Shown here piece by piece: positions 1 to 58,695 of a stretch of DNA of 64,000 bases. A model generated the notes under the pieces. That model was not told the origin of the DNA. It saw only the letters and a list, made by a program, of their open reading frames with translations, and made no database searches. Origin of the DNA: Mayamaea pseudoterrestris (Eukaryota); assembly GCA_027923505.1 (NCBI GenBank), contig BROI01000033.1, forward strand, positions 1-64,000, written 5' to 3'. A program made the translations under genes and the position numbers. Every line of letters begins with the position of its first letter. Within the stretch, counting starts at the first letter, position 1.

Positions 1-2224
1 TTGGCAATGTATTTGGTGACATCTTGTCACCAGTCTCAGCCCGCAGATGCTGTGACATTCAAACGCCCCTACAGCAAGCCCTGTAGATGCCCAAATTACA
101 CCAGAATGGTGCCAACATCATTTTATCGCCTGCGCTACAAGATAGTAGGCTGGACTGATGTCTGAGGGGATGGCAATGTATTTTTTGGTGACAACTTGTC
201 ACCAGTCTCAGTCGCAGATGCCATGACATGCAAACGCCCCGACAGCAAGCCCTGTAGGTGCCCGAATTACACCAGAATGGTGCCAACATCATTTTTCCGG
301 CTGCGCTACAAGTTGGTTGGCTTGGCTGGTGTCTCAGGGGATGGCATTGTATTTGGTGACAACTTGTCACCAGTCTCAGCCCACAGATGCTGTGACATTT
401 AAGTGCCCCTACAGCAAGCCCTGTAGGTGCCCAAATTACACCAGAATGGTGCCAACATCATTATTCAGGCTGCGCTACAAGATGGTAGGCTTGGCTGGTG
501 TCTCAGGGGATGGCAATGTATTTGGTGACAACTTGTCACCAGTCTCAGCCCGCAGATGCTGTGACATTCAAACGCCCCTACAGCAAGCCCTGTAGGTGCC
601 CAAATTACACCAGAATGGTGCCAACATCATTATTCAGCCTGTGCTACAAGATGGTAGGCTTGGCTTGTGTCTCAGGGGATGGCGATGTATTTGGTGACAA
701 CTTGTCACCAGTCTCAGCCGGCAGATGCCGTGACATTCAAACGCCCCTACAGCAAGCCTTGTAGGTGCCCAAATTACACCAGAATGGTGCCAACATTATT
801 ATTCTGCCTGCGCTACATGATGGTAGGCTTGGCTGGTGTCTCAGGGGATGGCAATGTATTTGGTGACAACTTGTCACCAGTCTCAGCCCGCAGATGCCTT
901 GACATTCAAACGCCCCTACAGCAAGCCCTGTAGATACCCAAATTACACCAGAATGGTGCCAACACCATTATTTAGCCTGCGCTACAAGATGGTAGGCTTG
1001 GCTGGTGTCTCAGGGGATGGCAATGTATTTGGTGACAACTTGTCACCAGTCTCAGCCCGCAGATGCTGTGACATTCAAACGCCCCTACAGCAAGCCCTGT
1101 AGGTGCCCAAATTACACCAGAATGGTGCCAACATCATTCTTCAGGATGCGCTACATGATGGTAGGCTTGGCTGGTGTCTCAGGGGATGGCAATGTATTTG
1201 GTGACAACTTGTCACCAGTCTCAGCCGCAGATGCCATGACATGCAAACGCCCGACAGCAAGCCCTGTAGGTGCCCAAATTACACCAGAATGGTGCCAACA
1301 TCATTATTCCGGCTGCGCTACAAGTTGGTTGGCTTGGCTGGTGTCTCAGGGGATGGCAATGTATTTGGTGACAACTTGTCACCAGTCTCAGCCCGCAGAT
1401 GCTGTGACATTCAAACGCCCCTACAGCAAGCCCTGTAGGTGCCCAAATTACACCAGAATGGTGCCAACATCATTCTTCAGGATGCGCTACATGATGGTAG
1501 GCTTGGCTGGTGTCTCAGGGGATGGCAATGTATTTGGTGACAACTTGTCACCAGTCTCAGCCGCTGCAGACCATGACAAAACCCTAGTGAAGCCCAAATT
1601 ACACCAGAATGGTGCCAACATCATTATTCCGGCTGCGCTACAAGTTGGTTGGCTTGGCTGGTGTCTCAGGGGATGGCAATGTATTTGGTGACAACTTGTC
1701 ACCAGTCTCAGCCGCAGATGCCATGACATGCAAACGCCCCGACAGCAAGCCCTGTAGATACCCAAATTACACCAGAATGGTGCCAACATCATTATTCAGC
1801 CGGTGCTACAAGATGGTAGGCTTGGCGTGTGTCTCAGGGGATGGCGATGTATTTGGTGACAACTTGTCACCAGTCTCAGCCGGCAGATGCCGTGACATTC
1901 AAACGCCCCTACAGCAAGCCCTGTAGGTGCCCAAATTACACCAGAATGGTGCCAACATCATTATTCTGCCTGCGCTACATGATAGTAGGCTTGGCTGGTG
2001 TCTCAGGGGATGGCAATGTATTTGGTGACAACTTGTCACCAGTCTCTGCCCACAGATGCTGTGACAATCAGACGCCCCTACAGCAAGCCCTGTAGGTGCC
2101 CAAATTACACCAGAATGGTGCCAACATCAATATTCATGCTGAGCTACAAGATGGTAGGCTTGGCTGGTGTCTCAGGGGATGGCAATGTATTTGGTGACAA
2201 CTTGTCACCAGTCTCAGCCCGCAG
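1..2224. repeat. Satellite A array, block 1 (169-bp monomer, ~13 copies, starts before the window)
   Basis: Consensus ggcaatgtatttggtgacaacttgtcaccagtctcagcccgcagatgccgtgacattcaaacgcccctacagcaagccctgtaggtgcccaaattacaccagaatggtgccaacatcattattcaggctgcgctacaagatggtaggcttggctggtgtctcaggggat (169 nt, 88 G+C). Spurious ORFs recur every 169 bp. Confidence 0.98.
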
Positions 2225-3493
2225 CAGCCACCACCCAACACAACCCAACCCCAGTCATTTCCTGGAGGGTTTGAGGGTGTACCATTAAATGGATTGCACA
2301 TCTTACATCCTTTATGCTTGCCTAATAACTGAAGAGACTCATATCAAAGCTGGCTGGCCCATGGGCATGGCTATTGAGAGTAAACACTGAAACCTATGTG
2401 GTCCACCAGCCACCAGCCACCATCCACCTCAACCCAACCCCGGTCATTTTCCTTGAGGGTTTGGAGGTACACCATTGAATGGATTGCACATCCTACATCC
2501 TGTATGCATGTCTAATTACCGCAGAGACTCATATTGAAGCTGGCTGGCCCATGGGTATGGCTATTGAGTGTAAACAATGAAAACCATGTGGTCAACCAGC
2601 CACCATCAACTCAACCCAACCAAGGTCAATTCCCTGGAGGGTTTGAGGGTGTGCCATTGAATGGATTGCACATCCTACATCCTTAATGCTTGCCTAATAT
2701 CCGCAGAGACTCATATTGAAGCTGGCTGGCCCATGGGTATGGCTATTGAGTGAAACACTGAAACCTATGTGGTCCACCAGCCACCATCCAACACAACCCA
2801 ACCCCGGTCAATTCCCTGGAGGGTTTGAGGGTGTACCATTGGATGGATTGCACATCCTACATCCTTCATGCATACCTAAATAATCGCAGAGACTCATATT
2901 GAAGCTGGCTGGCCCATGGGTATGGCTATTGAGTGTAAACACTGAAAATTATGTGGTCCACCAGCCACCATAAACTCAACCCAACCCCGATCAATTCCCT
3001 GGAGGGTTGGAGGGTGCACCATTGAATGGATTGCACATTTAACATCCGTTATGCTTGCCTAATAACCGCAGAGACTCATATTAAAGCTGGCTGGCCCATG
3101 GGTATGGCTATTGAGTGTAAACACTGAAACCTATGTGGTCGACCAGCCACCATCCAACTCAACCCAACCCCGGTCAATTCCCTGGAGGGTTTGAGGGTGT
3201 ACCATTTAATGAATTGCACATGATACATCCGTTATACATGCCTAATAACCGCAGAGACTCATGTTGAAGCTGGCTGGCCCATGGGTATGGCTATTGAGTG
3301 TAAACACTGAAAATTATGTGGTATGGCCACCATCCAACTCAACCCAACCCCGATCAATTCCCTGGAGGGTTGGAGGGTGCACCATTGAATGGATTGCACA
3401 TTTAACATCCGTTATGCTTGCCTAATAACCGCAGAGACTCATATTGAAGCTGGCTGGTCCATGGGTATGGCTATTGAGTATAAACACTGAAAC
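2225..3493. repeat. Satellite B array, block 1 (182-183-bp monomer, 7 copies)
   Basis: Unit cagccaccatccaactcaacccaaccccggtcattttcctggagggtttgagggtgtaccattgaatggattgcacatcctacatcc...gctggcccatgggcatggctattgagtgtaaacactgaaacctatgtggtccac. The ggattgcac motif recurs at 2481, 2663, 2845 and 3028. Confidence 0.97.
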
Positions 3494-6400
3494 CTTGTCG
3501 CCAGTCTCAGCCGGCAGATGCCGTGACATTCAAACGCCCCTACAGCAAGCCTTTTAGATGCCCAAATTCCACCAGAATGGTGCCAACATCATTATTCAGG
3601 CTGCGCTACAAGATGGTAGGCTTAGCAGCTGTCTCATTGGATGGCAATGTATTTGGTGACAAGTTGTCACCAGTCTCAGCCCACAGTTGCCTTGACATTC
3701 AAACGCCCCTACAGCTAGCCCTGTAGGTGCCCAAATTACACCAGAATGGTGCCAACATCATTATTCAGGCTGCGCTACAAGATGGTAGGCTTGGCTGGTA
3801 TCTCAGGGGATGGCAATGTATTTGGTGACAACTTGTCACCAGTCTCAGCCGCAGATGCTGTGACATGCAAACACCCATACAGCAAGCCCTGTAGGTGCCC
3901 AAATTACACCAGAATGGTGCCAACATCATTATTCCGGCTGCGCTACAAGATGGTAGGCTGCTGGTGTCTCGGGGATGGCAATGTATTTGGTGACAGCTTG
4001 TCACCAGTCTCAGCCAAGATTTTTGTGACATTTAAATGCCCCTGCAGAAAGCCCTGTCGTACCCAAATTACACAATGGTGCCAACATCATTATTCAGGCT
4101 GCTACAAGATGGAGGCCTGGCGGTGTCTCAGGATGGCAATGTATTTGAGTGACAACTTGTCACCAGTCTCAGCCGGAGATGCCGTGACATTCAAACGCCC
4201 CTACAGCAAGCCCTGCTTAGGTGCCCAGATTACACCAGAATGGATTGCCAACATCATTATTCAAGATGCGCTACAAGATGGTAGGCTTGGCTGGTGTCTC
4301 AGGGGATGGCAATGTATTTGGTGACAACTTGTCACCAGTCTCAGCGACAGATGCGTACATTCAAACGCCACAGCAAGCCCTGTAGATACCCAAATTACAC
4401 CAGAATGGTGCCAACATCTTCTCTCGCTACATTGGTAGGCTTGGCTGGTGTCTCGGGAGATAACAGTAATATTTGGTGACAACTTGTCGCAGTCTCATCC
4501 CAAGATTTTGTGACATTTAAATGCCCCTAAAGCCCTGTTGATACCCAAATTACACCAGAATGGTGCCAGCATCATTATTCGAACAGCGCTGCAAGATGGT
4601 AGGCTTGGCTGGTGTCTCAGGGATGGCAATGTATTTGGTGACAACTTGTCCAGTCTCTTGACAGATGCCATGACATTCAAACGCCCCTACAGCAAGCCCT
4701 GTAGGTGCCCAAATTACACCAGAATGGGCAACATTCTTCTCCGATATAAGATGGTAGGCTTGGCTGGTGTCTCAGGGGATGGCAATGTATTTGGTGACAA
4801 CTTGTCACCAGTCTCAGCCCAAAGATGCCATGACATTTAAACGCCCCTACAGCAAGCCCTGTAGGTGCCCAAATTACACCAGAATGGTGCCAACATCATT
4901 ATTCAGGCTGCGCTACAAGTTGGTAGGCTTGGCTGGTGTCTCAGGGGATGGCAATGTTTTTGGTGACAACTTGTCACCAGTCTCAGCCCACAGATGCCGT
5001 GACATTCAAACGCCCCTACAGCAAGCCCTGTAGGTGCCCAACTTACACCAGAATGAGCCAAACATCAATATTCATGCTACACTACAAGATGGTAGGCTTG
5101 GCTGGTGACTGAGGGCATGGCAATGTTTTTGGTGATAACTTGTCACCAGTCTCAGCCCGCAGATGCCATGACATTCAGACGCCCCTACAGCACGCCCTGT
5201 AGGTGCCCAAAATACACCAGAATGGTGCCAACATCATTTTTCAGGCTGCGCTACACGTTGGTAGGCTTAGTGGGTGTCTCAGGGGATGGCAATGTATTTG
5301 GTGACAACTTGTCACCAGTCTCAGCCCGCCAATGCCATGACATTCAAACGCCCCTACAGCAGGCCCTGTAGGCGCCCAAATTACACCAGAATGGTGCAAA
5401 CATCTTTATTCCGGATGCGCTACAAAATGGTAGGCTTGGCTGGTGTCTCAGGGGATGGCAATGTATTCAGTGACAACTTGTCTCCAGTCTCAGCCCACAG
5501 ATGCCGTGACATACAAACGTTCCTACAGCAAGCCCTGTAGGTGCCCAACTTACACCAGAATGAGCCAAACATCAATATTCATGCTACACTACAAGATGGT
5601 AGGCTTGGCTGGTGACTGAGGGCATGGCAATGTTTTTGGTGATAACTTGTCACCAGTCTCAGCCCGCAAATGCCATGACATTCAGACGCCCCTACAGCAC
5701 GCCCTGTAGGTGCCCAAAATACACCAGAATGGTGCCAACATCATTTTTCAGGCTGCGCTACACGTTGGTAGGCTTAGTGGGTGTCTCAGGGGATGGTAAT
5801 GTATTTGGTGACAACTTGTCACCAGTCTCAGCCCGCCAATGCCATGACATTCAAACGCCCCTACAGCAGGCCCTGTAGGCGCCCAAATTACACCAGAATG
5901 GTGCCAACATCTTTATTCCGGATGCGCTACAAAATGGTAGGCTTGGCTGGTGTCTCAGGGGATGGCAATGTATTCAGTGACAACTTGTCTCCAGTCTCAG
6001 CCCACAGATGCCGTGACATACAAACGTTCCTACAGCAAGCCCTGTAGGTGCCCAAATTACTCCAGATTGGTGCACAAAATCATTTTTAAGGGTTCGCTAC
6101 AAGATGGAAGGCTTGGCTGGTGTCTCAGGGGATGGCAACGTATTTGGTGACAACTTGTCACCAGTATCATCCTGCAGATGCCATGACATTCAAACGCCCC
6201 TACAGCAAGCCCTGTAGGTGCCCAACTTACACCAGAATTGTGCCAACATCATTATTCAGGCTGCGCTTCAAGATGAAAGGCTTGGCTGGTGTCTCAGGGG
6301 ATGGCAATGTATTTGGTGACAACTTGTCACCAGTCTCAGCCCGCAGATGCCATGACATTCAAACGCCCCTACAGCAGGCCCTGTAGGTGCCCAAATTTCA

Positions 6401-7363
6401 CCAGAATGGTGCCAACATCATTATTCAGGCTTAGCAACAAGATAGTAGGCTTGGCTGGTGTCTCAGGGGATGGCAATGTATTTGGTGACAACTTGTCACC
6501 AGTCTCAGCCCACAGATGCCGTGACATTCAAACGCCCCTATAAAATGCCCTCTAGGTGCCCAAATTACACCAGAATGGTGCCAACATCAACACTCTGGCT
6601 GCGCGACAAGATGGTAAACTTGGCTGGTGTCTCAGGGGATGGCAATGTATTTGGTGACAACTTGTCACCAGTCTCAGCCCACAGATGCAGTGACATTTAA
6701 ATGCACCTACAACAAGCCCTGTTGGAGCCCAAATTACACCAGAATGGTGCCAACATCATTATTCAGGCTGCGCTACAAGTTGGTAGGCTTAGTAAGTGTC
6801 TCAGGGGATGGCAATGTATTTGGTGACAACTTGTCACCAGTCTCAGCCCGCAGATGCCATGACATTCAAAAGTTCCTACAGCAAGCCCTGTAGGTGCCCA
6901 AATTACACCAGAATGGTGCCAACATCATTATTCCGTCTGCGCTACAAGATGGTAGGCTTGGCTGGTGTCTCAGGGGATGACAATGTATTTGGTGACAACT
7001 TGTCACCAGTCTCAGCCCGCAGATGCCGTGACATTCAAACGCCCCTACAGCAAGCCCTGTAGGTGCCCAACTTACACCAGAATGGTGCCAACATCATTAT
7101 TCAGCCTGCGCTACAAGATGGTAGGCTTGGCTGGTGTCTCAGGGGATAGCAATGTATTTGGTGACAACTTGTCACCAGTCTCAGCATAACACAGATGCCG
7201 TGACATTCAAACGCCCCTACAGCAAGCCCTGTAGATGCCCAAATTCCACCAGAATGGTGCCAACATCTTTATTCCGGATGCGGTACAAGATGGCAGGCTT
7301 GGCTGGTGTCTCAGGGGATGGCAATGTATTTGGTGACAACTTGTCACCAGTCTCAGCCGGCAG
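3494..7363. repeat. Satellite A array, block 2 (~23 monomers; indel-rich 3950-4750)
   Basis: Same 169-bp unit. Contains a 507-bp (3-mer) tandem duplication around 5033-6047. Confidence 0.97.
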
Positions 7364-9192
7364 CAGCCACCACCCAACACAACCCAACCCCGGTCATTTT
7401 CCTGGAGGATTTAAGGGTGTACCATTAAATGGATTGCACATCTTACATCCTTTGTACTTGCCTAATAACCGCAGAGTCTCATAATGAAGCTGGCTGGCCC
7501 ATGGGCATGGCTATTGAGAGTAAACACTGAAACCTATGTGGTCCACCAGCCACCAGCCACCATCCACCTCAACCCAACCCCGGTCATTTTCCTGGAGGGT
7601 TTGGAGGTACACCATTAAATGGATTGCACATCCTACATCCTTCATGCATACCTTATAACCGCAGAGACTCATATTGAAGCTGGCTGGCCCATGGGCATGG
7701 CTATTGAGTGTAAACACTGATACCTATGTGGTCCACCAGCCACCATCCAACTCAACCCAACCCCTGTCATTTTCCTGGAGGGTTTAAAGGTACACCATTG
7801 AATGGATTGCACATCCTACCTCCTTAATGCTTGCCTAATAACTGCAGAGACTCATATTGAAGCTGGCTGGACCATGGGCATGGCTATTGAGTGTAAACAC
7901 TGATACCTATGTGGTCCACCAGCCACCATCCAACTCAACCCAACCCCTGTCATTTTCCTGGAGGGTTTAAAGTACACTGTTGAATGGATTGCACATCATA
8001 CATCCTTTATGCATGCCTAATAACTGCAGAGACTCATATTGAAGCTGGCTGGCCCATGGGCATGGCTATTGAGTGTAAACACTGAAACCTATGTGGTCCA
8101 CCAGCCACCATCCAACTCAACCCAACCCCGGTCATTTTCCTGGAGGGTTTAAAGGTACACCATTGAATGGATTGCACATCCTACATCCTTTATGCTTGCC
8201 TGATAACTGCAGAGACTCATATCAATGCTGGCTGGCCCATGGGCATGGCTATTGACAGTGAGTGTAGAAACTGAAAACCATTTGGTTCATCAGCCACCAT
8301 CCAAATCAACCCAACCCCGGTCATTTTCCCGGAGAATTTGGAGGTACACCATTGAATGGATTGCACATCCTACATCTGTTAAGCATGCCTAATAACCGCA
8401 GAGACTTATATTGATGCTGGCTGGCCCATGGGCATGGCTATTGAGTGTGAACACTTAAACCTATGTGGTCCACCAGCCACCATCCAACTTAACCCAACCC
8501 CGGTCAATTCCCTGGAGGGTTTGAGGGTGCACCATTGAATGGATTGCACATCCTACATCCGGTATACATGCCTAATAACCGCAGAGACTCATATTGAAGC
8601 TGGCTGGCCCATGGGCATGGCTATTGAGTGTAAACACTGAAACCTATGTGGTCCACCAGCCACCATAAACTCAACCCAACCCCAGTCAATTCCCTTGAGG
8701 GTTTGAGGCTGTACCATTGAATGGATTGCACATCCTACATCCTTTATGAATGCCTAATAACTGCAGAGACTCATATTGAAGCTGGCTGGCCCATGGGCAT
8801 GGCTATTGAGTGTAAACACTGAAACCTATGTGGTCCACCAGCCACCATCCAACTCAACCCAACCCCGGTCATTTTCCTGGAGGGTTTAAAGGTACACCAT
8901 TGAATGGATTGCACATCCTACATCCGTTATATATGCAAAATAACCGCAGAGACTCATATAGAAGCTGGCTGGCCCATGGGTATGGCTATTGAGTGTAAAC
9001 ATTGAAAACCATGAGGTCGACCAGCCACCATCCAACTCAACCCAACCCCGGTCATTTCCCTGGAGGGTTTGAGGGTGCACCATTAAATGGGATTGCACAT
9101 CCTACATCCTGTATACATGCCTAATAACCGCAGAGACTCATATTGAAGCTGGCTGGCCCATGGGCATGGCTATTGAGTGTAAACACTGAAAC
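7364..9192. repeat. Satellite B array, block 2 (10 copies)
   Basis: 183-bp period (tggctgg at 7681 and 7864; 8783 and 8966). Confidence 0.97.
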
Positions 9193-15100: not shown

Positions 15101-15113
15101 TCTCAGCCCGCAG
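9193..15113. repeat. Satellite A array, block 3 (~35 highly homogeneous monomers)
   Basis: Nearly uninterrupted 169-bp period. Confidence 0.98.
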
Positions 15114-16053
15114 CAGCCACCACCCGACACAACCCAACCCCAGTCATTTCCTGGAGGGTTTGAGGGTGTACCATTGAATGGATTGCACATCCTACATCCG
15201 TTATACATGCCTAATAATTGCAGAGACTCATATTGAAGCTGGCTGGCCCGTGGGTATGGCTATTGAGTGTAAACACCAAAACCATGTGGTATGGCAACCA
15301 TCCAACTCAACCCAACCGGAGCCACCAGCCACCAGCCACCATCCACCTCAACCCTATGTGGTCCACCAGCCACCATCCAACTCAACCCAACCCCGGTCAT
15401 TTTCCTGGAGGGTTTGGAGGTACACCATTGAATGGATTGCACATCCTACATCCGCCATATATGCAAAATAACCGCAGAGACTCAAATTGAAGCTGGTTGG
15501 CCCATGGGCATGGCTATTGAGTGTAAACACTGAAAAACCATAAGGTCTACCAGCCACCATCCACCTCAACCCAACCCCAGTCAATTACCTGGAGAGTTTG
15601 AGGGTGCACCATTGAATGGATTGCACATCCTACATCCTTTATGCTTGCCTAATAACCGCAAAGACTCATATTGAAGCTGGCTAGCCCATGGGCATGGCCA
15701 TTGAGTGTAAACACTGAAACCTATGTGGTCCACCAGCCACCATCAACTCAACCCAACCCCGGTCATTTTCCTGGAGGGTTTGAAGGTACACCATTATGCG
15801 TGCCTAATAACCGCAGCGACTCATATTGAAGCTGGCTGGCCCATGGTCATGGCTAGTGAGTGTACACAATGAAAAGCATAAGGTTGACCAGCCACCATCA
15901 ACTCAACCCAACCCCGGTCAGTTCCCTGGATGGTTTGAGGGTGCGCCATTGAATGGATTGCACATTTAAAATCCGTTATGTTTGCCTAATAACCGCAGAG
16001 ACTCATATTGAAGCTGGCTGGCCTATGGGTTATGGCTATTGAGTATAAACACT
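15114..16053. repeat. Satellite B array, block 3 (~5 copies with internal rearrangements)
   Basis: B units with a partial duplication near 15300-15370 and a deletion near 15795. Confidence 0.95.
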
Positions 16054-19000: not shown

Positions 19001-21232
19001 GTGACAACTTGTCACCAGTCTCAGCCTGCAGATGCCTTGACATTCAAACGCCCCTACAGCAGGCCATGTATACACCCAAATGACACCAGAATGGTGCCAA
19101 CATCATTATTCCGGCTGCGCTACAAGATGGTAGGCTTGGCTGGTGTCTCAGGGGATGGCAATGTATTTGGTGACAACTTGTCACCAGTCTCAGCCCACAG
19201 ATGCCGTGACATTCAAACGCCCCTACAGCAAGCCCTGTAGGTGCCCAAATTACACCAGAATGGTGCCAACATCATTATTCAGGCTGCGCTACAAGTTGGT
19301 AGGCTTGGCTGGTGTCTCAGGGGATGGCAATGTATTTGGTGACAACTTGTCACCAGTCTCAGCTCACAGGTGCCGTGACATTCAAACGCCCCTACAGCAA
19401 GCCCTGTAGGTGCCCAAATTACACCAGAATGGTGCCAACATCATTATTCCGGCTGCGCTACAAGATGGTAGGCTTGGCTGGTGTCTCAGGGGATGGCAAT
19501 GTATTTGGTGACAACTTGTCACCAGTCTCAGCCCACAGATGCCGTGACATTCAAACGCCCCTACAGCAAGCCCTGTAGGTGCCCAAATTACACCAGAATG
19601 GTGCCAACATCATTATTCTGGCTCCGCTACAGAGGAAGGCTTGGCTGGTGTCTCAGGGGATGGCAATGTATTTGGTGACAACTTGTCACCAGTCTCAGCC
19701 CGCAGATGCCGTGACATTCAAACGCCCCTACAGCAAGCCCTGTAGGTGCCCAAAACACACCAGAATGGTGCCAACATCATTATTCGGTCTGCGCTTCAAG
19801 ATGGTAGGTTTGGCTGGTGTCTCAGGGGATGCCAATGTATTTGGTGACAACTTGTCACCAGTCTCAGCCCGCAGATGCTGTGACATTCAAACGCCCCTAC
19901 AGCAAGCCCTGTAGGTGCCCAAATTACACCAGAATGGTGCCAACATCATTATTCAGGCTGCGCTACAAGATGGTTGGCTTGGCTGGTGTCTCAGGGGATG
20001 GCAATGTATTTGGTGACAACTTGTCACCAGTCTCAGCCCGCAGATGCCGTGACATTCAAACGCCCCTACAGCAAGCCCTGTAGGTGCCCAAATTACACCA
20101 GAATGGTGCCAACATCATTATTCCGCCTGAGCTACATGATGGAAGGCTTGGCTGGTGTCTCAGGGGATGGCAATGTATTTGGTGACAACTTGTCACCAGT
20201 CTGAGCCCGCAGATGCCGTGACATTCAAATGTTCCTACAGCAAGCCCTGTAGGTGCCCAAATTACACCAGAATGGTGCCAACATCATTATTCGGGCTCTG
20301 CTTCAAGATGGAAGGCTTGGCTGGTGTCTCAGGGGATGGCAATGTATTTGGTGACAACTTGTCACCAGTCTCAGCCCGCAGATGCTGTGACATTCAAACG
20401 TTCCTATAGCAAGCCCTGTAGATGCCCAAATTACACCAGAATGGTGCCAACATTATTATTCGGGCTCCGCTTCAAGATGGAAGGCTTGGCTGGTGTCTCA
20501 GGGGATGACAATGTATTTGGTGACAACTTGTCACCAGTCTCAGCCCGCAGATGCTGTGACATTCAAACGTTCCTATAGCAAGACCTTTAGGTGCCCAAAT
20601 CACACCACAATGGTGCCAACATTATTATTCAGGCTGTGCTACAAGATGGTAGGCTTGGCTGGTGTCTCAGGGGATGGCAATGTATTTGGTGACAACTTGT
20701 CACCAGTCTCAGCCCGCAGATGCCATGACATTCAAATGTTCCTACAGCAAGCCCTGTAGGTGCCCAAATTTCACCAGAATGGTGCCAACATCATTATTCC
20801 GGCTGTGCTACAAGATGGTTGGCTTGGCTGGTGTCTCAGGGGATGGCAATGTATTTGGCGACAACTTGTCACCAGTCTCAGCCCACAGATGCCATGACAT
20901 TGAAACGCCCCTACAGCAAGCCCTGTAGGTGCCCAAATTACACCAGAATGGTGCCAACATAATTATTCAGGCTGCGCTACAAGTTGGTAGGCTTGGCTGG
21001 TGTCTCAGGGGATGGCAATGTATTTGGTGACAACTTGTCACCAGTCTCATCCCGCAGATGCCGTGACATTCAAACGCCCCTACAGCAAGCCCTGTAGATG
21101 CCCAAATCACACCACAATGGTGCCAACATCATTACGCTGCCTGCGCTACATGATGGTATGCTTGCCTGGTGTCTCAGGGGATGACAATGTATTCAGTGAC
21201 ACCTGTCACCAGTCTGAGCCCGCAGATGCCGT
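16054..21232. repeat. Satellite A array, block 4 (left of the Copia insertion, ~30 monomers)
   Basis: 169-bp unit, ending in the Copia target duplication GCCGT (21228-21232). Confidence 0.97.
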
Positions 21233-24200
21233 TGACAAGTCGCAGAGCGGCGAAGTCAAGAGCCCGAACCCTAATTAGCTTGTGTCGAGTCCGCAGCTGT
21301 CGTATGTGACATGTGAATGAAGAAAGTGCGCAACCGTTATTATTGGCTGCGCTACACAAGATGGAAGGCTTGGCTGGTTTTTCAGGAGATGACAATGTAT
21401 TTGGTGACAACTTGTCACCAGTCTCAGCCCGCAGATGCAGTGACATTTAAACCCCCCAGCAAGCCCTGTAGGTGCCCAAATCACACCAGAATGGTGTCAA
21501 CATCATTTTTCAGGCTGTGCTACAAGATGGAAGGCTTGGCTGGTGTCTCAGGGGATGACAATGTATTTGTGACAACTTGTCACCAGTCTCAGCCCACAGA
21601 TGCCGTGACATTCAAATGCCCCTACAGAAGCCCTGTCGATGCCCAACTTACACCAGAATGGTGCCAACATCATTATTCCGGCTGTGCTACAAGATGGGGT
21701 TGGCTTGCTGGTGTCTCAGGGGAAATGAGGAACTACGTCTCAGCCATGGCCTGACTTTCGACGTGACGAACCTGTAAGGTGCCCAATTTCACCAGAATGG
21801 TGCCAACATCATTATTCCGGCTGTGCTACAAGATGGTGGCTTGGCTGGTGTCTCAGGGATGGCAATGTATTTGGTGACAACTTGTTACCAGTCTCAGCCC
21901 GCAGATGCCATGACATTTCAAAACGTTCCTACAGCAAGCCCTGTAGGTGCCCAAATTTCACCAGAATGGTGCCAACATCATTATTCCAGGCTGTGCTACA
22001 AGATGGTTGGCTTGGCTGGTGTCTCAGGGGATGGCAATGTATTTGGCGACAACTTGTCACCAGTCTCAGCCCCGGACTCCAGCATGCCATGAATAAGAAA
22101 AGAACTTACAGCAAGCCTGTAGGTGCCCAAATTACACCAGAATGGTGCCAACATAATTATATTCAAGGCTGCGCTACAAGTTGGTTGGCTTGGCTGAAAG
22201 AGGGGATGGTAATGTATTTGGCGACAACTTGTCACCAATCTCACTACAGATGCCATGATTGAACGCCCCTACAGCAAGTTCCCAGGTACTCAAATTACAC
22301 CAAATAACATAATTCATTCAGGCTGCGTGCTGGTAGGTCATTGGTGTCTCAGGGATGGCAATGGTCGCGAGCATTGACTTGGATAAGCATTCAGCGTCGA
22401 CTGTCGATCGCGGTGCGAGTGGCGGAGTATGGGAGCGGACGGACGCATCCTACCGAGGACAAGTTCCACAAGATTGAAGTCACTGGAGTCGGTGGTCTCA
22501 AGCTTCCGGACCTGTCTACCGTCACAGCAGTTGCCAAGCTTAAGAGCACCAAGGGTTGGGTCGTCGGCGAGTTCCATAATTACGCATATTCTGGAACTGG
22601 CAAGACGATTCAATAGTATGCAGGTGGAAGCCTTCGGTCTTCATGTCATCGACAAGCATTACAACTTTGGTGGCAAGTTACGAATCGAAACGCCAGATGG
22701 ATACAAGTTTATGCTCGGAATGGAAAGTGGCATGGCAACCTTGCTAATGTTTCCAGTATTGGCGCATGAGCTACACACCTTACCTCGAGTCATGATGACT
22801 TTCGATGGGCCTTGGGATCCGAATGAGTTTGACGTTGAGCCGACCGAGGACGATGACTATGACTCTTCGGATGACGATGATGACGAGGACAACGTACCAG
22901 ACTTGTTGTCACGCGACGAAGACGACGAAGACAGTGACAACGGCGAGGCGGGTTTCCGCGCGCGCGGTGCTCGCACCCATGCAGAGCAACGTGACTTATA
23001 CGGTGAACGACAATCAACCTGTTTACACCGAGAAGGAGCTGAATGTTTGTGCCGGCCGTACAGAAGTACAATGCGGATCTCGTCTATCAGCCCTACAAGT
23101 CTATCCTGCCAAAGAAACCCAATATCGACGCATGCTGCCAAACTTTGCATGGTACCCGCGCAGACACAAGGATACTTTCGCGCCACTACGCAGTTCAACA
23201 TGCACGCCGATACCCCCACGAATGCATCCGAAAGAGCCGATTCTGGAATCTACCGTCTAGATGATCGAGTACCATGACACCATGTTCTTCGACGAACCTG
23301 CCATGGTGACCATATCGACGGACATGCAGGTACATCGCGCAGCTATTCTATGGTTGTCGCAGTCAGATCATTGTCGTGTATCCCATGCGGACAAGGTAGC
23401 AGAAACGATTCCATTTCATCCGCGAGTTGGAGCTCGAGTCTTCTCGATAATGCGAAAGAACATGGTGCCGAAGTGACCGCGGTCATGATTCGCGTCGCAT
23501 AATGGAGCTTAATCAAAACCCAGCCGGGATATCGGCACGTAAAGGAAAGTCATGAACGACTTATGGACCAAACGGCACCCGGGCATGCTTCTGGCTGCGC
23601 CTACTCTCAGACCGAGTTGTACTCTTACCAGTTCCCATCGAGTTTATCACTGGGCAAGTTCCCGACGTGTCGAGGTTTGCATTTTCGTGGTTTGAAAAAC
23701 TACTTTGTCAAGATCCAGGCCCGGTACCGCAGCGTACGCTTGGTCCCAACATGACGGCGGAGACGACCTGACGTACTTCATCTGCGATTGCGAGAACAAT
23801 AGGAATCGGTTGCCCAAAACACCATTTACGGCACCTGCTTCCCCAGTCATGAAAGAAGGGGAGCCGCGTCTCTATACCGTACCTGGTCTGGTGGCGAATC
23901 TTATGGAAATGATCAAGAAGATTCCGACGCGCCACAGACGATGATTCTCATTTCACCTCGGACATCCTACACAGGCAAGGCGGACGGGAAACCGCGCGAG
24001 GCAAGATCTGCGAAACCCAGAGCCACGAAGACGGGCACAAAGCTCCAAAGTACGCACTGATGAAGCGCCGGGGCGTCATGAGCAAGCTGAACAACCGCGA
24101 CGCCCAGAACCATCAGAACATTAAAATGATGCTGAAGCTTGGTAACGGCGAAGCGGACGAAGTCATGTCATATGTCGAGGTTTCCGATCTCAACGAGGCC

Positions 24201-26662
24201 AAAGTGAACCAAGACATGGCGAATCCTGAGCGTAAATGGTTCTTCAAGGAGATTCTAGACCATCAGGGTCCGCTGACGAGCAAGTCGAAGAACTGGAAGC
24301 ACTCCAAGTGGAACGTCCTTGTACAATGGGACGATGGATCCAAGACTTGGGAGCCTCTCAACGCGATGATCGAAAGCGACAAAGTATCAGTGGCAGCCTA
24401 CGTGCAAAAGCATAATCTTCTCGACAAGGACGGATGGGCACCGTTGAATCGATGGGCCCGGAACGCCAAGAAGGTTGCGCGCAAGGTGGCGACTGCCCGA
24501 ATGGAGCAGCAGAAGAACGGACCGCGCTACAAGTTTGGAGTCCAAGTACCCCGAGACTGGAAGGAAGCGCGTCATCTACAAGAAGCTGCAGGGCACACAA
24601 AGTGGACGGATGCGGAAGGCGTGGAGCTTGCGAATCTGGACGAGTACGAGACGTTTCAAGATCTTGGTCCGAGTTCCACCACAACACCACCAACTGGTTA
24701 CCAGAAGATCCGAGTCCATTTTGTGTACGATGTCAAGCACGATTTGCGATACAAGGCACGTCTCGTTGCAGGCGGCCACATGACGAAAGACAACGACGAT
24801 GCCTACTCCAGTGTTATCTCATTGAAGGCAATGCGTCTAGCTCTCGTCATTGGAGAAGCAAACGGCAAGAAGTGCATGGTCGGTGACATTGGGAATGCTT
24901 ATCTCGAAGCGTTCACCAAGGAGAAGGTCTACTTCGTTGGAGGCCCCGAGTTCGGGGAGCGCAAAGGACACATCCTAGTCATCGTCAAGGCTTTGTACGG
25001 ATTGCGAACGAGCGGAGCACGATTTCACGAACGCTTAGCCGACGCCCTACTTGCGGAAGGGTGGAAGCCGTCCTATTGCGATTCCGATCTGTGGATCAAG
25101 GACGCCGGCGACAGCTACGACTACCTCTGTGTATGGGTCGACGATCTGTTGAATATTTCAGACGATCCCGCAGCGTTCTTCAAGATGCTAGAGGAGAAGT
25201 ACAAGTTTAAGCTCAAAGGTGCATTGGACATCGAGTATCATCTCGGCGGTGACTTTGAGAGCGTGACGAAACCCTTTACTGGTCGGCCAAGACCGCTGTA
25301 AACTCTTGGCCCTGAGTACGAGCGTTTGTTTGAAGGTCCTCCGAGAAGAGTACTCATCACCAATACAAAGACGATCATCCAGAACTTGACCAAAGCGAGC
25401 TACTGAACGACCAAGAGAAGAAGATTTACCAGTCTGGTGACTCATCAGGGGCAATTACTTTGGGACGATTTGACATTGCCGTTGCAGTTGTGAGTCTGTC
25501 GCGATTCCGTGTGGAGCCGCGCAAGGGACACCTGCAGCGGGTGAAGCGAGTCTGTGGATATTTGCGAGAGTTACCGGATGCAGCAATCCGTTTCCGTACG
25601 AAGTGGCCAGCCAACGAGGAGCACTTTGGCACCATGGAGGAACAAGATTGGGAGCGCAGCGTTTATGGGAAGGACGGAGTTGATGAGATGTTGGATGTCT
25701 ACCCACCGCCAAAGGGTGTGACTGTACGAACATCAACTTTCGAGGATGCGTGTCTCATGCATTGCATGGTGACAGGCAAGTCATTGGAAGGAGTTTTGTC
25801 ATTTGTCAACCAGACGCCTGTCGACTGGCATTGCAAACTCCAAGCTACAGTCGAGCCGCCTTCGGATCGGAATTTGGCGTAGCAAAGAGTGGAACGGATA
25901 TCAGCATTTCTCTACGTGCGTCGCTCATGGCTATGGGCGTACCATTGGAGAAGTCTGCCTGGATGTACGGAGACAACCAAGCAGTGATTACGCAATCTAC
26001 AATCCCGAGTTTGACATTGTCCAAGCGACACAATGCGTTGGCCTAAATCCAATCGAGTGTCTCAGCCGTAAGGGCAGTTGCTGCGGGGATTATTAAGTTT
26101 GTAAAGATTGACGGAAAGGAGAACATTGCGGACGTACTGACGAAGTACCTGCCGTACTGTGATGCGATGCCATTGCTCAAGCCAGTATTGTTTTGGCGCG
26201 GCGATACATCGTATGCGATTGTGAAGGACAAGAATGCGGCTACGACGAGCAGCGTACCCGAGGGGAGTGACAAGTCGCAGAGCGGCGAAGTCAAGAGCCC
26301 GAACCCTAATTAGCTTGTGTCGAGTCCGCAGCTGTCGTATGTGACATGTGAATGAAGAAAGTGCACAACCGTCGTGTGGATGCGTTGTATGAATGGAACG
26401 ACCAGTTACGACTGATGTAATGTGATTGAAAGAAATGGATTGATCGGATGATCTTCCGAGTGGTCGATGTAGTGATGTAGCGATAAGCTCACAATATAGA
26501 ACTACTAGTTTGCGACGAGAGTGCAGTCGTATTCGTGTAGTGGCAAGCGCAAGACTATTCGACGAGCCATCTCCATCAAGAGCTGTACAGACCGTGGCCA
26601 AGGACCCTGTATCGGAGCTTTTTGGAGGTAAGACGTTGACTGCGAAATCGTCAACGGTGTTA
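21233..26662 (+). mobile_element. Ty1/Copia LTR retrotransposon (diatom CoDi-type) inserted in satellite A; 5' part corrupted
   Basis: TSD GCCGT at 21228-21232 and 26663-26667. The 5' LTR start (21233-21337) matches the 3' LTR (26268-26662, 395 bp). PPT gaggggag at 26260-26267. Protease TVDRGASGG near 22400; RT motifs YKARLVAGGH, GDIGNAYL, KALYGL, VWVDD; RNase H motifs MYGDNQAVI and NIADVLTK. Confidence 0.95.
22365..26312 (+). pseudogene. Copia pol (protease-integrase-chromo-like-RT-RNaseH), multiply frameshifted
   Basis: Fragments across frames: 22429-23277, 24060-25301 (chromo-like WFFKEILDHQGP...WNVLVQWDDGSKTWEPL plus RT), 25460-25882 and 25750-26046. The final frame reads into the 3' LTR. 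Confidence 0.85.
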
Positions 26663-28349
26663 GCCGTGACATTCAAATGTTCCTACAGCAAGCCCTGTAG
26701 GTGCCCAAATCACACCACAATGGTGCAAACATTATTATTCAGGCTGTGCTACAAGATGGTAGGCTTGGCTGGTGTTTCAGGAGATGACAATGTATTTGGT
26801 GACAACTTGTCACCAGTCTCAGCCCGCAGATGCAGTGACATTTGAACACCCCAACAGCAAGCCCTGTAGGTGCCCAAATCACACCAGAATGGTGTCAACA
26901 TTATTATTCAGGCTGTGCTACAAGATGGTAGGCTTGGCTGGTGTCTCAGGAGATGACAATGTATTTGGTGACAACTTGTCACCAGTCTCAGCCCGCAGAT
27001 GCAGTGACATTTAAATGCCCCTACAGAAAGCCCTGTCAATACCCAAATTACACCAGAATGGTGCCAACATCATTATTCAGGCTGTGCTACAAGATGGTTG
27101 GCTTGCCTGGTGTCTCAGGGGATGGCAATGTATTTGGTGATAACGTGTCACCAGTCTCAGCCCGCAGATGCCATGACATTCAAACGTTCCTACAGCAAGC
27201 CCTGTAGGTGCCCAAATTTCACCAGAATGGTGCCAACATCATTATTCCGGCTGTGCTACAAGATGGTTGGCTTGGCTGGTGTCTCAGGGGATGGCAATGT
27301 ATTTGGCGACAACTTGTCACCAGTCTCAGCCCGCAGATGCCATGACATTCAAACGTTCCTACAGCAAGCCCTGTAGGTGCCCAAATTTCACCAGAATGGT
27401 GCCAACATCATTATTCCGGCTGTGCTACAAGATGGTTGGCTTGGCTGGTGTCTCAGGGGATGGCAATGTATTTGGCGACAACTTGTCACCAGTCTCAGCC
27501 CACAGATGCCATGACATTGAAACGCCCCTACAGCAAGCCCTGTAGGTGCCCAAATTACACCAGAATGGTGCCAACATAATTATTCAGGCTGCGCTACAAG
27601 TTGGTAGGCTTGGCTGGTGTCTCAGGGGATGGCAATGTATTTGGTGACAACTTGTCACCAGTCTCATCCCGCAGATGCCGTGACATTCAAACGCCCCTAC
27701 AGCAAGCCCTGTAGATGCCCAAATCACACCACAATGGTGCCAACATCATTACGCTGCCTGCGCTACATGATGGTATGCTTGTCTGGTGTCTCAGGGGATG
27801 ACAATGTATTCAGTGACACCTGTCACCAGTCTGAGCCCGCAGATGCCGTGACATTCAAATGTTCCTACAGCAAGCCCTGTAGGTGCCCAAATCACACCAC
27901 AATGGTGCAAACATTATTATTCAGGCTGTGCTACAAGATGGTAGGCTTGGCTGGTGTTTCAGGAGATGACAATGTATTTGGTGACAACTTGTCACCAGTC
28001 TCAGCCCGCAGATGCAGTGACATTTGAACACCCCAACAGCAAGCCCTTTAGGTGCCCAAATTTCACCAGAATGTTGCCAACATCATTATTCCGGCTGTGC
28101 TACAAGATGGTTGGCTTGGCTGGTGTCTCAGGGGATGGCAATGTATTTGGTGACAACATGTCACCAGTCTCATCCCGCAGATGCCGTGACATTCAAACGC
28201 CCCTACAGCAAGCCCTGTAGGTGCCCAAATTACACCAGAATGGTGCCAACATCATTATTCAGCCTCCGCTACATGATGGTTGGCTTGGCTGGTGTCTCAG
28301 GGGATGGCAATGTATTTGGTGACAACTTGTCACCAGTCTCAGCCCACAG
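26663..28349. repeat. Satellite A array, block 4 continued (10 monomers, 7-mer higher-order repeat)
   Basis: The diagnostic gccgtgacattcaaatgttcc...aatcacaccacaatggtgcaaac occurs at 26663 and 27845 (1182 bp apart). Confidence 0.97.
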
Positions 28350-29958
28350 CAGCCACCACCCAACACAACCCAACCCCGGTCATTCTCCTGGAGAGTTTGA
28401 TGGTACACCATTGAATGGATTGCACATTCTACATCCTTCATGCACACCTAATAACCGCAGAGACTCATATTGAAGCTGGCTGGCCCATGGGCATGGCTAT
28501 TGAGTGTAAACACTGAAACCTATTTGGTCCACCAGCCACCATCCAACTCAACCCAACCCCGGTGATTTTCCTGGAGGGTTTGGAGGTACACCATTGAATG
28601 GATTGCACATCCTACATCCTTTTTGCATGCCTAATAACCGCAGAGACTCAAATTGAAGCTGGCTGGCCCATGGGCATGGCTATTGAGTGTAAACACTAAA
28701 ACCATAAGGTTGACCAGCAACCGTCAACTCAACCAACCCCGGTCAATTCCCTGGAGGGTTTGAGGGTGCACCATTAAGTGGATTGCACATCCTACATCCT
28801 TTATGCATGCCTAATAACCGCAGAGACTCATATTGAAGCTGGCTGGCCCATGGGCATGGCTATTGAGTGTAAACACTGAAACCTATGATGTGGTCCACAA
28901 GCCACCATCCAACTCAACCCAACCCCGGTCATTTTCCTGGAGGGTTTGGAGGTACACCATTGGATGGATTGCACATCCTACATCCTGTATGCATGCCTAA
29001 TAACTGCAGAGACTCATATTGAACCTGGCTGGCCCATGGGCATGGCTATTGAGTGTAAACAATGAAAACCATGTGGTCAACCAGCCACCATCAACTCAAC
29101 CCAACCCCGGTCAATTCCCTGGAGGGTTTGAGGGTGTACCATTGAATGGATTGCACATCCTACATCCTTAATGCTTGCCTAATAACCGCAGAGACTCATA
29201 TTGAAGCTGGCTGGCCCATGGGTATGGCTATTGAGTGTAAACACTGAAACCTATGTGGTCCACCAGCCACCATCCAACTCAACCCAACCCCAGTCAATTC
29301 CCTGGAGGGTTTGAGGGTGTACCATTGAATGGATTGCACATCCTACATCCGTTATACATGTCTAATAATCGCAGAGACTCATATTGAAGCTGGCTGGCCC
29401 ATGGGCATGGCTATTGAGTGTAAACAATGAAAACCATGTGGTCAACCAGCCACCATCAACTCAACCCTAACCTAGGTCAATTCCCTGGAGGGTTTGAGGG
29501 TGTACCATTGAATGGATTGCACATCCTACATCCTTCATGCACACCTAATAACCGCAGAGACTCATATTGAAGCTGGCTGGCCCATGGGTATGGCTATTGA
29601 GTGTAAACACTGAAACCTATGTGGTCCACCAGCCACCATCCAACTCAACCCAACCCCAGTCAATTCCCTTGAGGGTTTGGAGGTGCACCATTGAATGGAT
29701 TGCACATCCTACATCCTTCATGCACACCTAATAACCGCAGAGACTCATATTGAAGCTGGCTGGCCCATGGGTATGGCTATTGAGTGTAAACACTGAAAAC
29801 CATTTGGTCAAATAGCTACCATGCAATTCAACCCAACCCTGGTCAATTCCCTGGAGGGTTTGGAGGTACAACATTGAATGGATATTACATTCTACATCCT
29901 GTATGCAGAGTGTAAAAACTGAAAACCATGTGGTCCAATAGCAACCATCCAACTCAAC
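28350..29958. repeat. Satellite B array, block 4 (~9 copies, last truncated)
   Basis: 183-bp B units. Confidence 0.96.
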
Positions 29959-58523: not shown

Positions 58524-58695
58524 TGACGTAGTTTTCACTGGCACTCGTTTCACAATATTGCCTACTGACGTAGTTTTCACTGGAACTCGTTTCATATTAT
58601 TGCCTCATGACGTAGTTCTCACTGGCACTTGTTTCCTAATATTGCCTCATGGCGCAGTTTTCACTGGCACTCGTTTCACAGTATTGCCTCATGAG
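58524..58695. repeat. 42-bp minisatellite, 4 copies, three carrying TGACGT
   Basis: tgacgtagttttcactggcactcgtttcacaatattgcct(ac/ca) at 58524, 58566, 58608 and 58650. Confidence 0.9.

What the first reader, a model, noticed from the sequence alone, without database searches (positions are those of the whole stretch)
1..29958. Two alternating nucleosome-length satellites (169 and 183 bp) are collinear homologues that switch in register
Seen: A and B look unrelated at first but align in order along the unit. tcaaacgcccc/tcaacccaacccc; caagccctgtagg/caattccctggagg; tacacca--gaatggtgccaacatc/tacaccattgaatggattgcacatc; gcttggctgg/gctggctgg; ggg(g/c)atggcaat/gggcatggctat. Most block junctions fall at or near these homologous positions (cagcc; aac(c)t). 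Known: ~170-180-bp monomers typify plant and animal centromeric satellites, whereas the characterised Phaeodactylum centromeres are short, AT-rich and non-satellite. Inference: a >30-kb, ~52% GC two-family satellite domain, a candidate regional centromere or subtelomeric heterochromatin block in a diatom-like genome.
Basis: partly seen in the sequence, partly recalled or inferred. Interest (0 to 1): 0.75.

Follow-up and report, generated by a model that had tools for sequence, protein, structure and literature searches.

The report
Diatom two-family satellite DNA block
The first 30 kb of this window is the edge of a large block of nucleosome-sized tandem repeats in a diatom genome, a kind of DNA common in plants and animals but barely described in diatoms, and whether it marks a centromere cannot be decided from the sequence alone.

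Summary
The arrays are real. nhmmer finds 119 units of a 169-bp satellite (A) and 31 units of a 183-bp satellite (B), all on one strand, in blocks A13-B7-A23-B10-A35-B5-A48-B9 ending at 29,957. A 5.4-kb copia-like element interrupts them. The host is a raphid-pennate-like diatom.

A and B are probably distant homologues. A strict circular whole-unit alignment beats shuffles (z 2.9-3.65; 0-2 of 100), while reverse-complement and third-satellite controls sit at null. Local alignment, word chaining and nhmmer do not show the similarity.

"Switching in register" rests on few events. The seven internal junctions are three junction types. All four A-to-B junctions are copies of one event, sharing private variants, and two of the three B-to-A junctions are copies of another. 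Two types lie 1-8 nt from register and the third is 76 nt off. The alternation therefore comes from duplication of one A-B-A composite.

All three satellites are strongly CpG-depleted, whereas neighbouring transposons and genes are not. In four runs of public contigs, summed depth over A is 1,000-10,000 times that of the flank. This points to an old, abundant, probably methylated heterochromatin satellite. Centromere versus subtelomere is undecided. The block has none of the low-GC, repeat-free features of known diatom centromeres.

The parts
1..2224 (+). Satellite A (169 bp), block 1: 13 units, cut by the window edge
2225..3495 (+). Satellite B (183 bp), block 1: 7 units. Starts at junction type A17|B8 and ends at type B179|A165
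3496..7363 (+). Satellite A, block 2: 23 units
7364..9194 (+). Satellite B, block 2: 10 units, with the same two junction types as block 1
9195..15113 (+). Satellite A, block 3: 35 units, the most homogeneous part (about 94-95% self-identity at every lag listed)
15114..16054 (+). Satellite B, block 3: 5 units, internally rearranged (76-nt insert and one short unit). Ends at the odd junction B178|A76
16055..21232 (+). Satellite A, block 4, left part. Its last 5 nt (GCCGT) are the target site of the inserted element
21233..26662 (+). Degenerate copia-like LTR element, 5,430 bp. It consists of a 105-bp remnant of the 5' LTR, about 1 kb of satellite A (21,338-22,363), broken coding frames with an RVT_2 domain, and a 395-bp 3' LTR
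26663..28349 (+). Satellite A, block 4, right part. It contains an unfilled paralogue of the insertion site at 27,550-28,144 (98.2% to the joined flanks, no gaps)
28350..29957 (+). Satellite B, block 4: 9 units, the last one decayed. End of the A/B domain
29958..31399 (+). Satellite C: 342 bp x 4.2, a diverged dimer of about 171 bp, with a 25-bp palindrome
31400..32400 (+). Repeat D: about 2 copies of a 490-506-bp unit at 86-89% identity, also deep in public contigs
33723..37697 (+). Gypsy-like retroelement frames (protease, RVT_1, RNase H, integrase zinc finger) between the repeats and the first ordinary gene at 38,193

Best explanation
Window 1-29,957 is the edge of a large nuclear satellite-DNA domain, most likely constitutive and CpG-methylated heterochromatin, in a raphid-pennate-like diatom. 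The bulk is an abundant 169-bp family (A). Embedded in it are blocks of a rarer 183-bp family (B), which is most likely a distant relative of A from the same ancestral unit of about 170-180 bp. A single A-B-A composite arose once, with its two junctions close to unit register. That composite was then copied at least three times along the array by unequal exchange or segmental duplication. Each block afterwards grew or shrank and was locally homogenised. One B-to-A junction was later changed by a deletion of about 80 bp.

Shown: the arrays; shared descent of the junctions; absence of higher-order repeats in A; CpG decay; a bona fide retroelement insertion.
Inferred: A/B common ancestry; methylation; heterochromatin; genome-wide abundance.
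No sequence-specific function is shown. The working role is structural repeat chromatin at a chromosome landmark, either pericentromere or chromosome end.
For: Arrays and blocks.

One origin for the junctions: the four A-to-B junctions have the same sequence, and their first B units share private variants (0 of 27 and 1 of 27 other units). Two B-to-A junctions are also identical and share rare A variants (1 of 117 each). First B units pair best with first B units (b1.1 with b2.1, 93.7%), and last with last (b1.7 with b3.5, 94.5%). A units 0 and -1 before the junction are slightly more alike across blocks than shifted controls (0.935 and 0.942 against 0.915 and 0.921).

A/B relatedness: circular global alignment gives z 2.9-3.65 in six scoring schemes, with reverse-complement and satellite C controls at null.

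Old, methylated-type decay: CpG observed/expected is 0.16-0.33 in A, B and C, against 1.02-1.15 in both retroelements and in 26 kb of genes. Transitions at consensus CpG sites run at 0.139 per site-copy against 0.024 at other C/G sites in A, and 0.113 against 0.048 in B.

Repeat-rich neighbourhood: a copia-like element sits inside A with a 5-nt target duplication, and an unfilled paralogous site lies nearby. Satellite C, repeat D and a gypsy-like element follow before the genes begin.

Abundance hint: 77,277 of 555,133 contig records of run X1, and 15,989 of 182,933 of X2, were laid on a 9.9-kb stretch. Summed word depth over the A bins exceeds the non-satellite bins by about 3-4 orders of magnitude in all four runs laid. 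B and C are about 10-100 times above the flank in X2, X4 and X5, and up to about 1,000 times in X1. The tool states that this is not a copy number.
Against: A/B homology is not seen by nhmmer (no hit at E<=100), by exact-word chaining or by stiff-gap local alignment (387 of 1000 shuffles reach it). The best alignment needs 54 gap columns out of 203.

Positional orthology of A units fades two units away from the junctions. The size of the duplicated composite therefore cannot be recovered.

CpG depletion of a satellite largely reflects three consensus sequences, so it amounts to three observations rather than 25 kb of independent sites. Only the within-array mutation spectrum is independent evidence.

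Methylation, heterochromatin marks and true copy number were not measured. The runs laid are contigs, and the best holder may be the sample the window was assembled from.
Confidence: 0.7

Rival explanations
1. Satellite A is the CENH3-binding DNA of a regional, satellite-based centromere, and B, C and D are pericentromeric layers. This diatom would then use a centromere type quite unlike the short, AT-rich, repeat-free centromeres of Phaeodactylum.
For: The units are nucleosome-sized (169, 183 and 2 x 171 bp). A shows the largest summed contig depth of anything on the stretch laid, in all four runs. From my own recall, the most abundant tandem repeat of about 170 bp is the usual centromere candidate in plants and animals (Melters et al. 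2013, seen here only as a search listing and abstract start). A carries a well-conserved 19-bp palindrome (3 of 200 shuffles reach its arm length) in its most conserved stretch. Layered families and retroelement insertions are present.
Against: There is no test of CENH3 binding and no per-chromosome map. A has no higher-order repeat structure (identity is flat, 0.915-0.923, at lags 1-39). The array abuts ordinary genes within 8 kb. Every diatom centromere described in the papers I read is low-GC and repeat-free, whereas this window has 0 windows of 100 bp at or below 32% GC.
Confidence: 0.3
2. The block is subtelomeric or interstitial (knob-like) heterochromatin with no kinetochore role.
For: The array is at one end of the window and continues beyond it. 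Several unrelated repeat families are stacked next to genes. CpG decay and transposon insertions fit any silent repeat block.
Against: No telomere-type repeat of two or more TTAGGG or TTTAGGG units, on either strand, occurs anywhere in the 64 kb. This says little, because the array runs off the window.
Confidence: 0.4
3. A and B are unrelated sequences. A B array was inserted once into A by end joining at a break in A's palindrome, and the near-register junctions and the alignment signal are chance.
For: The B-to-A breakpoint lies at the centre of A's palindrome TGGTGACAA-C-TTGTCACCA, and each B block is flanked by a 22-nt direct duplication of A (A164/165 to A17) (my reading). Microhomology at the joins is only 1-3 nt. 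nhmmer and word chaining see no A/B similarity. 'Near a shared 5-mer' has a chance rate of 0.31.
Against: Circular global alignment exceeds 98-100 of 100 shuffles in six scoring schemes, and only in the orientation in which the arrays actually lie. Controls with satellite C and with reverse complements are at null. Two junction types fall within 8 nt of register in alignments that were built without reference to the junctions.
Confidence: 0.25
4. The alternation of A and B blocks is an assembly artefact, with repeat reads joined wrongly.
For: Only short contigs of public runs could be laid, and none spans a block. Satellite arrays are hard to assemble (general knowledge).
Against: Units differ by about 8-11%, which is enough for long-read assembly. 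The junction copies are similar but not identical in their flanks (94.3% over 813 nt across one junction pair), as expected of old duplications rather than the same reads used twice. The retroelement has a clean target duplication and a matching empty site.
Confidence: 0.05

Closest known systems
Primate alpha satellite (171 bp), monomeric and layered pericentromeric arrays
   Same: Nucleosome-sized units in head-to-tail arrays of one orientation. Related monomer types coexist. There are sharp boundaries between families, retroelement insertions, local homogenisation and segmental duplication. These properties of alpha satellite are from my recall; the window's features are.
   Different: A has no higher-order repeat. 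GC is about 50% rather than AT-rich. There is no sequence similarity and no evidence of kinetochore binding. The lineage, a stramenopile alga, is far removed.
Phaeodactylum tricornutum centromeres (Diner et al., bioRxiv 10.1101/096016; abstract and passages read) and predicted Fistulifera solaris centromeres (bioRxiv 10.1101/2021.11.10.468027; passages read)
   Same: Same group of organisms (pennate diatoms). These are the only diatom chromosome landmarks characterised in the papers I could find.
   Different: Those are short low-GC regions: 1.4-2 kb at 36-37% GC for the best Fistulifera ones, and in Phaeodactylum they are identified by peaks of 100-bp windows at or below 32% GC. They are described as lacking repeats. 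Here there are at least 25 kb of tandem repeats at 48-51% GC, and 0 windows at or below 32% GC in 64 kb.
Satellite DNA families of the oomycete Phytophthora parasitica (PMC7290008; abstract start and one passage seen)
   Same: Satellite families in another stramenopile. That paper states that satellites had not been studied in its group, much as I found for diatoms.
   Different: I did not read its unit lengths or genomic locations, so no detailed comparison is made.
Satellite 'library' or superfamily model: related satellite families that coexist and are differentially amplified (Fry and Salser 1977; recalled, not read here)
   Same: A and B look like two diverged members of one unit family, amplified to very different levels. 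A is far above B in summed contig depth in all four runs. Loose ends of contigs show further A-like and B-like variants (table 7).
   Different: The relationship is shown only at z of about 3-3.9, and no intermediates were recovered.

Membership tests
Satellite DNA (long non-coding tandem arrays) | Head-to-tail arrays of a uniform unit over many kilobases | tested here: met
   119 A units and 31 B units on one strand, about 19.9 kb of A and 5.7 kb of B
Satellite DNA (long non-coding tandem arrays) | Non-coding, and not a known RNA gene family | tested here: met
   No Rfam family reaches its gathering score and there are no tRNA genes. The only frames of 150 aa or more lying wholly inside array sequence are two stop-to-stop frames (21,729-22,262 and 28,021-28,473). 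These were not sent to Pfam.
Satellite DNA (long non-coding tandem arrays) | High copy number genome-wide | tested here: inconclusive
   Summed contig word depth over A is about 1,000-10,000 times the flank in four runs, and 9-14% of all contig records of X1 and X2 fall on the stretch. The tool warns that this is not a copy number, and no raw reads or genome were available.
Centromeric satellite | Bound by the centromeric histone (CENH3/CENP-A) | not testable with these tools
   No chromatin data
Centromeric satellite | One main array per chromosome, at the site of Hi-C centromere clustering | not testable with these tools
   No genome is held for the window
Centromeric satellite | Recent homogenisation into higher-order repeats at the active core (frequent, not universal) | tested here: not met
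   Mean identity is flat (0.915-0.923) at lags 1-39. There are only short local runs of 97-99% identity.
Phaeodactylum-type diatom centromere | Cluster of 100-bp windows at or below 32% GC, without repeats | tested here: not met
   0 such windows in 64 kb, and the region is made of repeats
Subtelomeric satellite | Lies next to the telomere repeat | tested here: inconclusive
   No run of two or more TTAGGG or TTTAGGG units, on either strand, in the window. The array continues beyond the window's left edge.
One satellite superfamily (A and B homologous) | Whole-unit collinear similarity above shuffled controls | tested here: met
   z 2.9-3.65 in six schemes, with 0-2 of 100 shuffles reaching the score; 0 of 200. 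Controls are at null. The similarity is not seen by nhmmer, word chaining or stiff local alignment.
One satellite superfamily (A and B homologous) | Intermediate or bridging monomers | tested here: not met
   Block boundaries are sharp, and first B units are 90-94% like some other B units. No related arrays were recovered elsewhere.

The most novel reading that the evidence does not exclude
Satellite A is the kinetochore-forming DNA of this diatom. Diatoms would then span both extremes of centromere design: short AT-rich repeat-free centromeres in Phaeodactylum, and megabase-class satellite-based ones here. In this reading the conserved palindrome with the ACAA-C-TTGT core, shared by the unrelated satellites A and C, is a recognition or cruciform-forming element of that chromatin.
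Probability: 0.25. Interest if true: 0.8.

Novelty: new member of a known kind. Interest (0 to 1): 0.5.

Why it matters
In the papers I could find, diatom chromosome biology rests on two or three small genomes whose centromeres are short, AT-rich and free of repeats. I found no paper describing satellite DNA in a diatom. The search for 'diatom' with 'satDNA' returned 5 papers, none about diatoms, and four other searches gave none either.

An abundant nucleosome-sized satellite with the marks of long-term CpG methylation would show that at least some pennate diatoms have plant- and animal-style repeat heterochromatin. It also provides a concrete probe for finding their centromeres or chromosome ends: FISH with A and B, or CENH3 mapping onto A.

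The junction analysis is a caution for reading satellite maps. Repeated 'switches' between families can be copies of a single event.

Tried and rejected
- Whole genome: none is held, so no chromosome-level mapping was possible.
- Earlier notes of this scan: nothing on this genome, on this sequence or on diatom satellites.
79 of the 80 listed loci have a single match. The one locus with four matches (L080) is an unrelated 102-bp repeat, and only one weak A-profile hit appeared (L020, 18 bits, no tandem repeat).
- Exact 25-nt A motif: 0 matches in prokaryotic genome contigs and 0 in viral contigs.
- Public runs: 7 were listed, all kept as contigs, and no RNA holder was listed. Nothing can therefore be said about transcription. 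No laid piece spans the stretch.
- Single-strand folding: DNA fold of one satellite C unit gives z -1.11 against shuffles, which is not unusual. A batch fold of A and B units was over the tool's length limit, and my own folding script timed out. I replaced these with a search for perfect inverted repeats.
- Higher-order repeats in A: none. BLAST self-hits at 97% or more were uninformative.
- Relation of A or B to satellite C: none (z -1.1 to 0.8).
- The 391-bp segment missing from some contigs is not a copy of the copia LTR.
- Literature searches for diatom satellites or satellite centromeres found nothing on point. The Nitzschia navis-varingica genome paper does not contain the words satellite, tandem repeat or centromere. 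Supplementary files of the two preprints were not seen and may hold repeat tables.


Full report
WHAT IS THERE

Tandem Repeats Finder reports 169-bp arrays (2-1562, 1592-2224, 3494-7358, 9193-21237, 26663-28349). Alternating with them are 182-184-bp arrays (2225-3492, 7364-9194, 15360-15795, 28350-29907), and a 342-bp array follows at 29958-31399.

I built profiles from clean stretches and searched the whole window. This gave 119 A units and 31 B units, all on the + strand, in the order A13 B7 A23 B10 A35 B5 A48 B9. There are no hits beyond 29,908. GC is 0.48-0.52.

The window contains no Rfam family and no tRNA.

To the right of the arrays lie, in order:
- a repeat of about 500 bp, in two copies;
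- gypsy-like frames with protease, RVT_1, RNase H and an integrase zinc finger;
- ordinary genes: a ubiquitin hydrolase as one 1,149-codon frame, a rhodanese protein, a class I release factor and an inositol monophosphatase.

The release factor's best named relatives are the diatoms Epithemia, Amphora, Seminavis and Cylindrotheca at 56-63% identity. The nearest unnamed relative is at 76%. The host is therefore a raphid-pennate-like diatom without a close sequenced relative. No genome is held for the window.

ARE A AND B RELATED?

The answer depends on the test, and I give all results.

- Local alignment of one A unit against a doubled B unit: 4 to 387 of 1000 dinucleotide shuffles reach the observed score, depending on gap costs.
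- Both units doubled: 2 of 500 with soft gaps, 36 of 500 with stiff gaps.
- Collinear chaining of exact words of 4-6 nt: no better than shuffles (72-145 of 300).
- nhmmer with either family profile against a dimer of the other: no hit even at E<=100.
- Semi-global alignment: z 1.8-2.7, with 11-54 of 1000 shuffles reaching the score.

The test that matches the claim most directly uses each unit exactly once, tries every rotation and aligns globally. It gives a score of 146 against 87.5 +/- 17.9, and 0 of 200 shuffles reach it. The alignment has 114 matches in 203 columns, of which 54 are gap columns. Six scoring schemes give z 2.89-3.65, with 0-2 of 100 shuffles reaching the observed score. A variant of the test gives z 3.87, with 0 of 60.

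The controls behave as null. A against reverse-complement B, and A or B against satellite C in either orientation, give z between -1.1 and 0.8.

I conclude that A and B are probably distant homologues, with roughly two-to-one odds. The signal is a whole-unit collinearity spread over many short matches and small gaps. It is not one strong block.

THE JUNCTIONS

All four A-to-B junctions read the same: A ends at consensus position 17 and B starts at position 8. The four B units that follow share variants that are absent or nearly absent elsewhere. Column 17 C occurs in 0 of 27 other B units, and column 23 A in 1 of 27.

Two of the three B-to-A junctions are also identical (B179|A165). The A units that follow them share two rare variants, each found in 1 of 117 other units.

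The third B-to-A junction (B178|A76, at 16,055) is different. The last unit of block 3 is most like the last unit of block 1 (94.5%). This suggests the odd junction is the common one altered by a deletion of about 80 bp. That is my inference.

The seven internal junctions therefore descend from two, at most three, events.

In the six best alignments, which were made without reference to the junctions, the register offsets are -2 to -7 for A-to-B, +8 or -1 for the common B-to-A, and -76 for the odd one. Two of three types fall within 8 nt of register. By my own arithmetic this has a chance of about 0.02. A looser criterion, 'near a shared 5-mer', would be met by 31% of random junctions.

It rests on two independent events.

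Present-day A and B are far too different for homologous exchange: 56% identity over all columns, and the longest word I saw shared at matching positions is 7 nt. A near-register junction is better explained in one of two ways. Either B arose in place from a variant unit, or the exchange happened when the families were still close.

HOW THE ALTERNATION AROSE

Identity by descent of the junctions means that a composite A-B-A segment was copied along the array. Orthology of A units across blocks is detectable only for the two units next to the junction (0.935 and 0.942 against 0.915 and 0.921 for shifted controls). Block sizes differ (7, 10, 5 and 9 B units). The copies are therefore old relative to turnover within the arrays.

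A has no higher-order repeat. Mean identity is 0.915-0.923 at every lag from 1 to 39, with short local runs at 97-99%. B shows partial dimer structure (365-bp period; alternating subtypes).

Each B block is flanked by a 22-nt direct duplication of A (positions 164/165 to 17). The B-to-A breakpoint lies at the centre of A's palindrome. I record this as an observation that also fits the rival in which B was inserted at a palindrome break.

SIGNS OF WHAT KIND OF CHROMATIN THIS IS

CpG content. CpG observed/expected is 0.26-0.33 in the A blocks, 0.16-0.29 in the B blocks and 0.23 in C, with an excess of TpG/CpA (1.5-1.8). It is 1.15 in the copia-like element, 1.02 in the gypsy-like element and 1.13 in 26 kb of genes.

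Mutation spectrum within the arrays. Transitions at consensus CpG sites are 5.7 times as frequent as at other C/G sites in A (0.139 against 0.024 per site-copy) and 2.3 times in B. This is the footprint expected of long-term cytosine methylation. The link to methylation is general knowledge and was not measured here.

Retroelement insertion. The copia-like element (21,233-26,662, RVT_2 domain, broken frames) is flanked by a 5-nt duplication. When the two flanks are joined with one copy of that duplication removed, they match 27,550-28,144 at 584 of 595 positions without gaps. The best matches in the three other A stretches compared are 89.6-92.8%. This is a true insertion into A, made after a local 7-unit duplication.

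Palindromes. A's most conserved stretch (positions 128-169, major-allele frequency about 0.98 against 0.944 overall) contains a perfect 19-bp palindrome with 9-nt arms; 3 of 200 shuffles reach that arm length. C has a 25-bp palindrome (0 of 200). B has none.

ABUNDANCE

Seven public runs from two studies hold part of a 9.9-kb test stretch (26,700-36,600). All are kept as contigs. I laid four of them.
- 77,277 of 555,133 contig records of X1 and 15,989 of 182,933 of X2 fell on the stretch.
- Summed word depth over the five A bins was 1.1-2.7 million in X1, 122,000-334,000 in X2, 417-3,171 in X4 and 2,271-8,415 in X5.
- Over the thirteen non-satellite bins from 32,327 to 36,600 it was 230-999, 55-303, 0-1.6 and 0-2.4 respectively.
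- B and C lay in between.

The tool warns that these sums are not copy numbers, and that the best holder may be the source sample. I use them only as a hint that A is a major genome component, and that B is far rarer than A.

X4 and X5 also hold near-identical non-satellite pieces (for example 151 nt with one difference). The same or a very close organism is therefore present in those runs, rather than the satellite being shared across species.

CENTROMERE, CHROMOSOME END OR NEITHER

Nothing here decides this. The 64 kb contain no telomere-type repeat and no 100-bp window at or below 32% GC. The block therefore has none of the features used to find Phaeodactylum centromeres. Those centromeres 'lack repeats' (abstract and passages). 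The predicted Fistulifera centromeres are 36-42% GC without highly repeated elements (passages).

A satellite-based centromere would be new for diatoms. Apart from unit size, abundance and a conserved palindrome, nothing argues for it.

I put the centromere reading at about 0.3 and a non-kinetochore block (subtelomeric or interstitial) at about 0.4. The remainder is left open.

NOVELTY

I found no paper on satellite DNA in diatoms. 'Diatom' with 'satDNA' returned 5 papers, none on diatoms, and other combinations gave none. The library does not hold most subscription journals, and I did not see the supplements of the preprints.

The object is an ordinary kind of thing, satellite heterochromatin, in a lineage where it is little described. 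I therefore rate it a new member of a known kind, of moderate interest. It has a bolder reading that can be tested with CENH3 mapping or a chromosome-scale assembly.

Noticed in passing
window 21,233-26,662: A copia-like LTR element (RVT_2 domain, broken frames) inserted in satellite A with a 5-nt target duplication (GCCGT). An unfilled paralogue of the site lies at 27,550-28,144 (98.2% identity). Only 105 bp of the 5' LTR remain (99 of 100 identical to the 3' LTR). The rest is replaced by about 1 kb of satellite A (21,338-22,363), which most resembles the units just right of the element (up to 93%).
   Followed up: partly
window 29,958-31,399: The 342-bp satellite C is a diverged dimer of two units of about 171 bp (106 matches in 191 columns; z 3.1, 1 of 100 shuffles reach it). 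Each half has a palindrome at the same place. The longer one is 25 bp with 12-nt arms (0 of 200 shuffles reach that length).
   Followed up: partly
window, satellites A and C: The palindromes of the otherwise unrelated satellites A and C share the 9-nt core ACAACTTGT. All 108 matches in the 64 kb lie in A (105) or C (3), against 0.88 expected by chance for the whole window. This could be a common protein site or chance. It was not tested further.
   Followed up: partly
window 1-31,399 versus 33,700-64,000: CpG observed/expected is 0.16-0.33 in all three satellites, but 1.02-1.15 in both retroelements and in the genes. The satellites seem to have been under methylation-type decay far longer than the transposons inserted in or beside them.
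   Followed up: yes
window 31,400-32,400: A further repeat family D: two copies of a unit of about 490-506 bp at 86-89% identity. Its summed contig depth in the public runs is also far above the flank.
   Followed up: no
window 32,836-33,226: A 391-bp segment with terminal inverted repeats of about 15 nt, bounded by the same 5 nt (GGTAC) on both sides. Contigs of three runs (X1, X2, X4) skip it. It looks like a MITE-type insertion or excision polymorphism. It is not related to the copia LTR and occurs only once in the window.
   Followed up: partly
window 2,225-3,495; 7,364-9,194; 28,350-29,957: Satellite B shows partial dimer (365-bp) periodicity, with two alternating unit subtypes that are shared between blocks.
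   Followed up: partly
window 15,284-15,359 and 15,727-15,875: B block 3 is internally rearranged. It has a 76-nt insert made of repeated pieces of the start of the B unit, and one shortened unit.
   Followed up: no
window 58,524-58,694 and 61,287-61,464: Small tandem repeats in the gene-rich part: 42 bp x 4.1 just upstream of the inositol monophosphatase frame, and 49 bp x 3.5.
   Followed up: no
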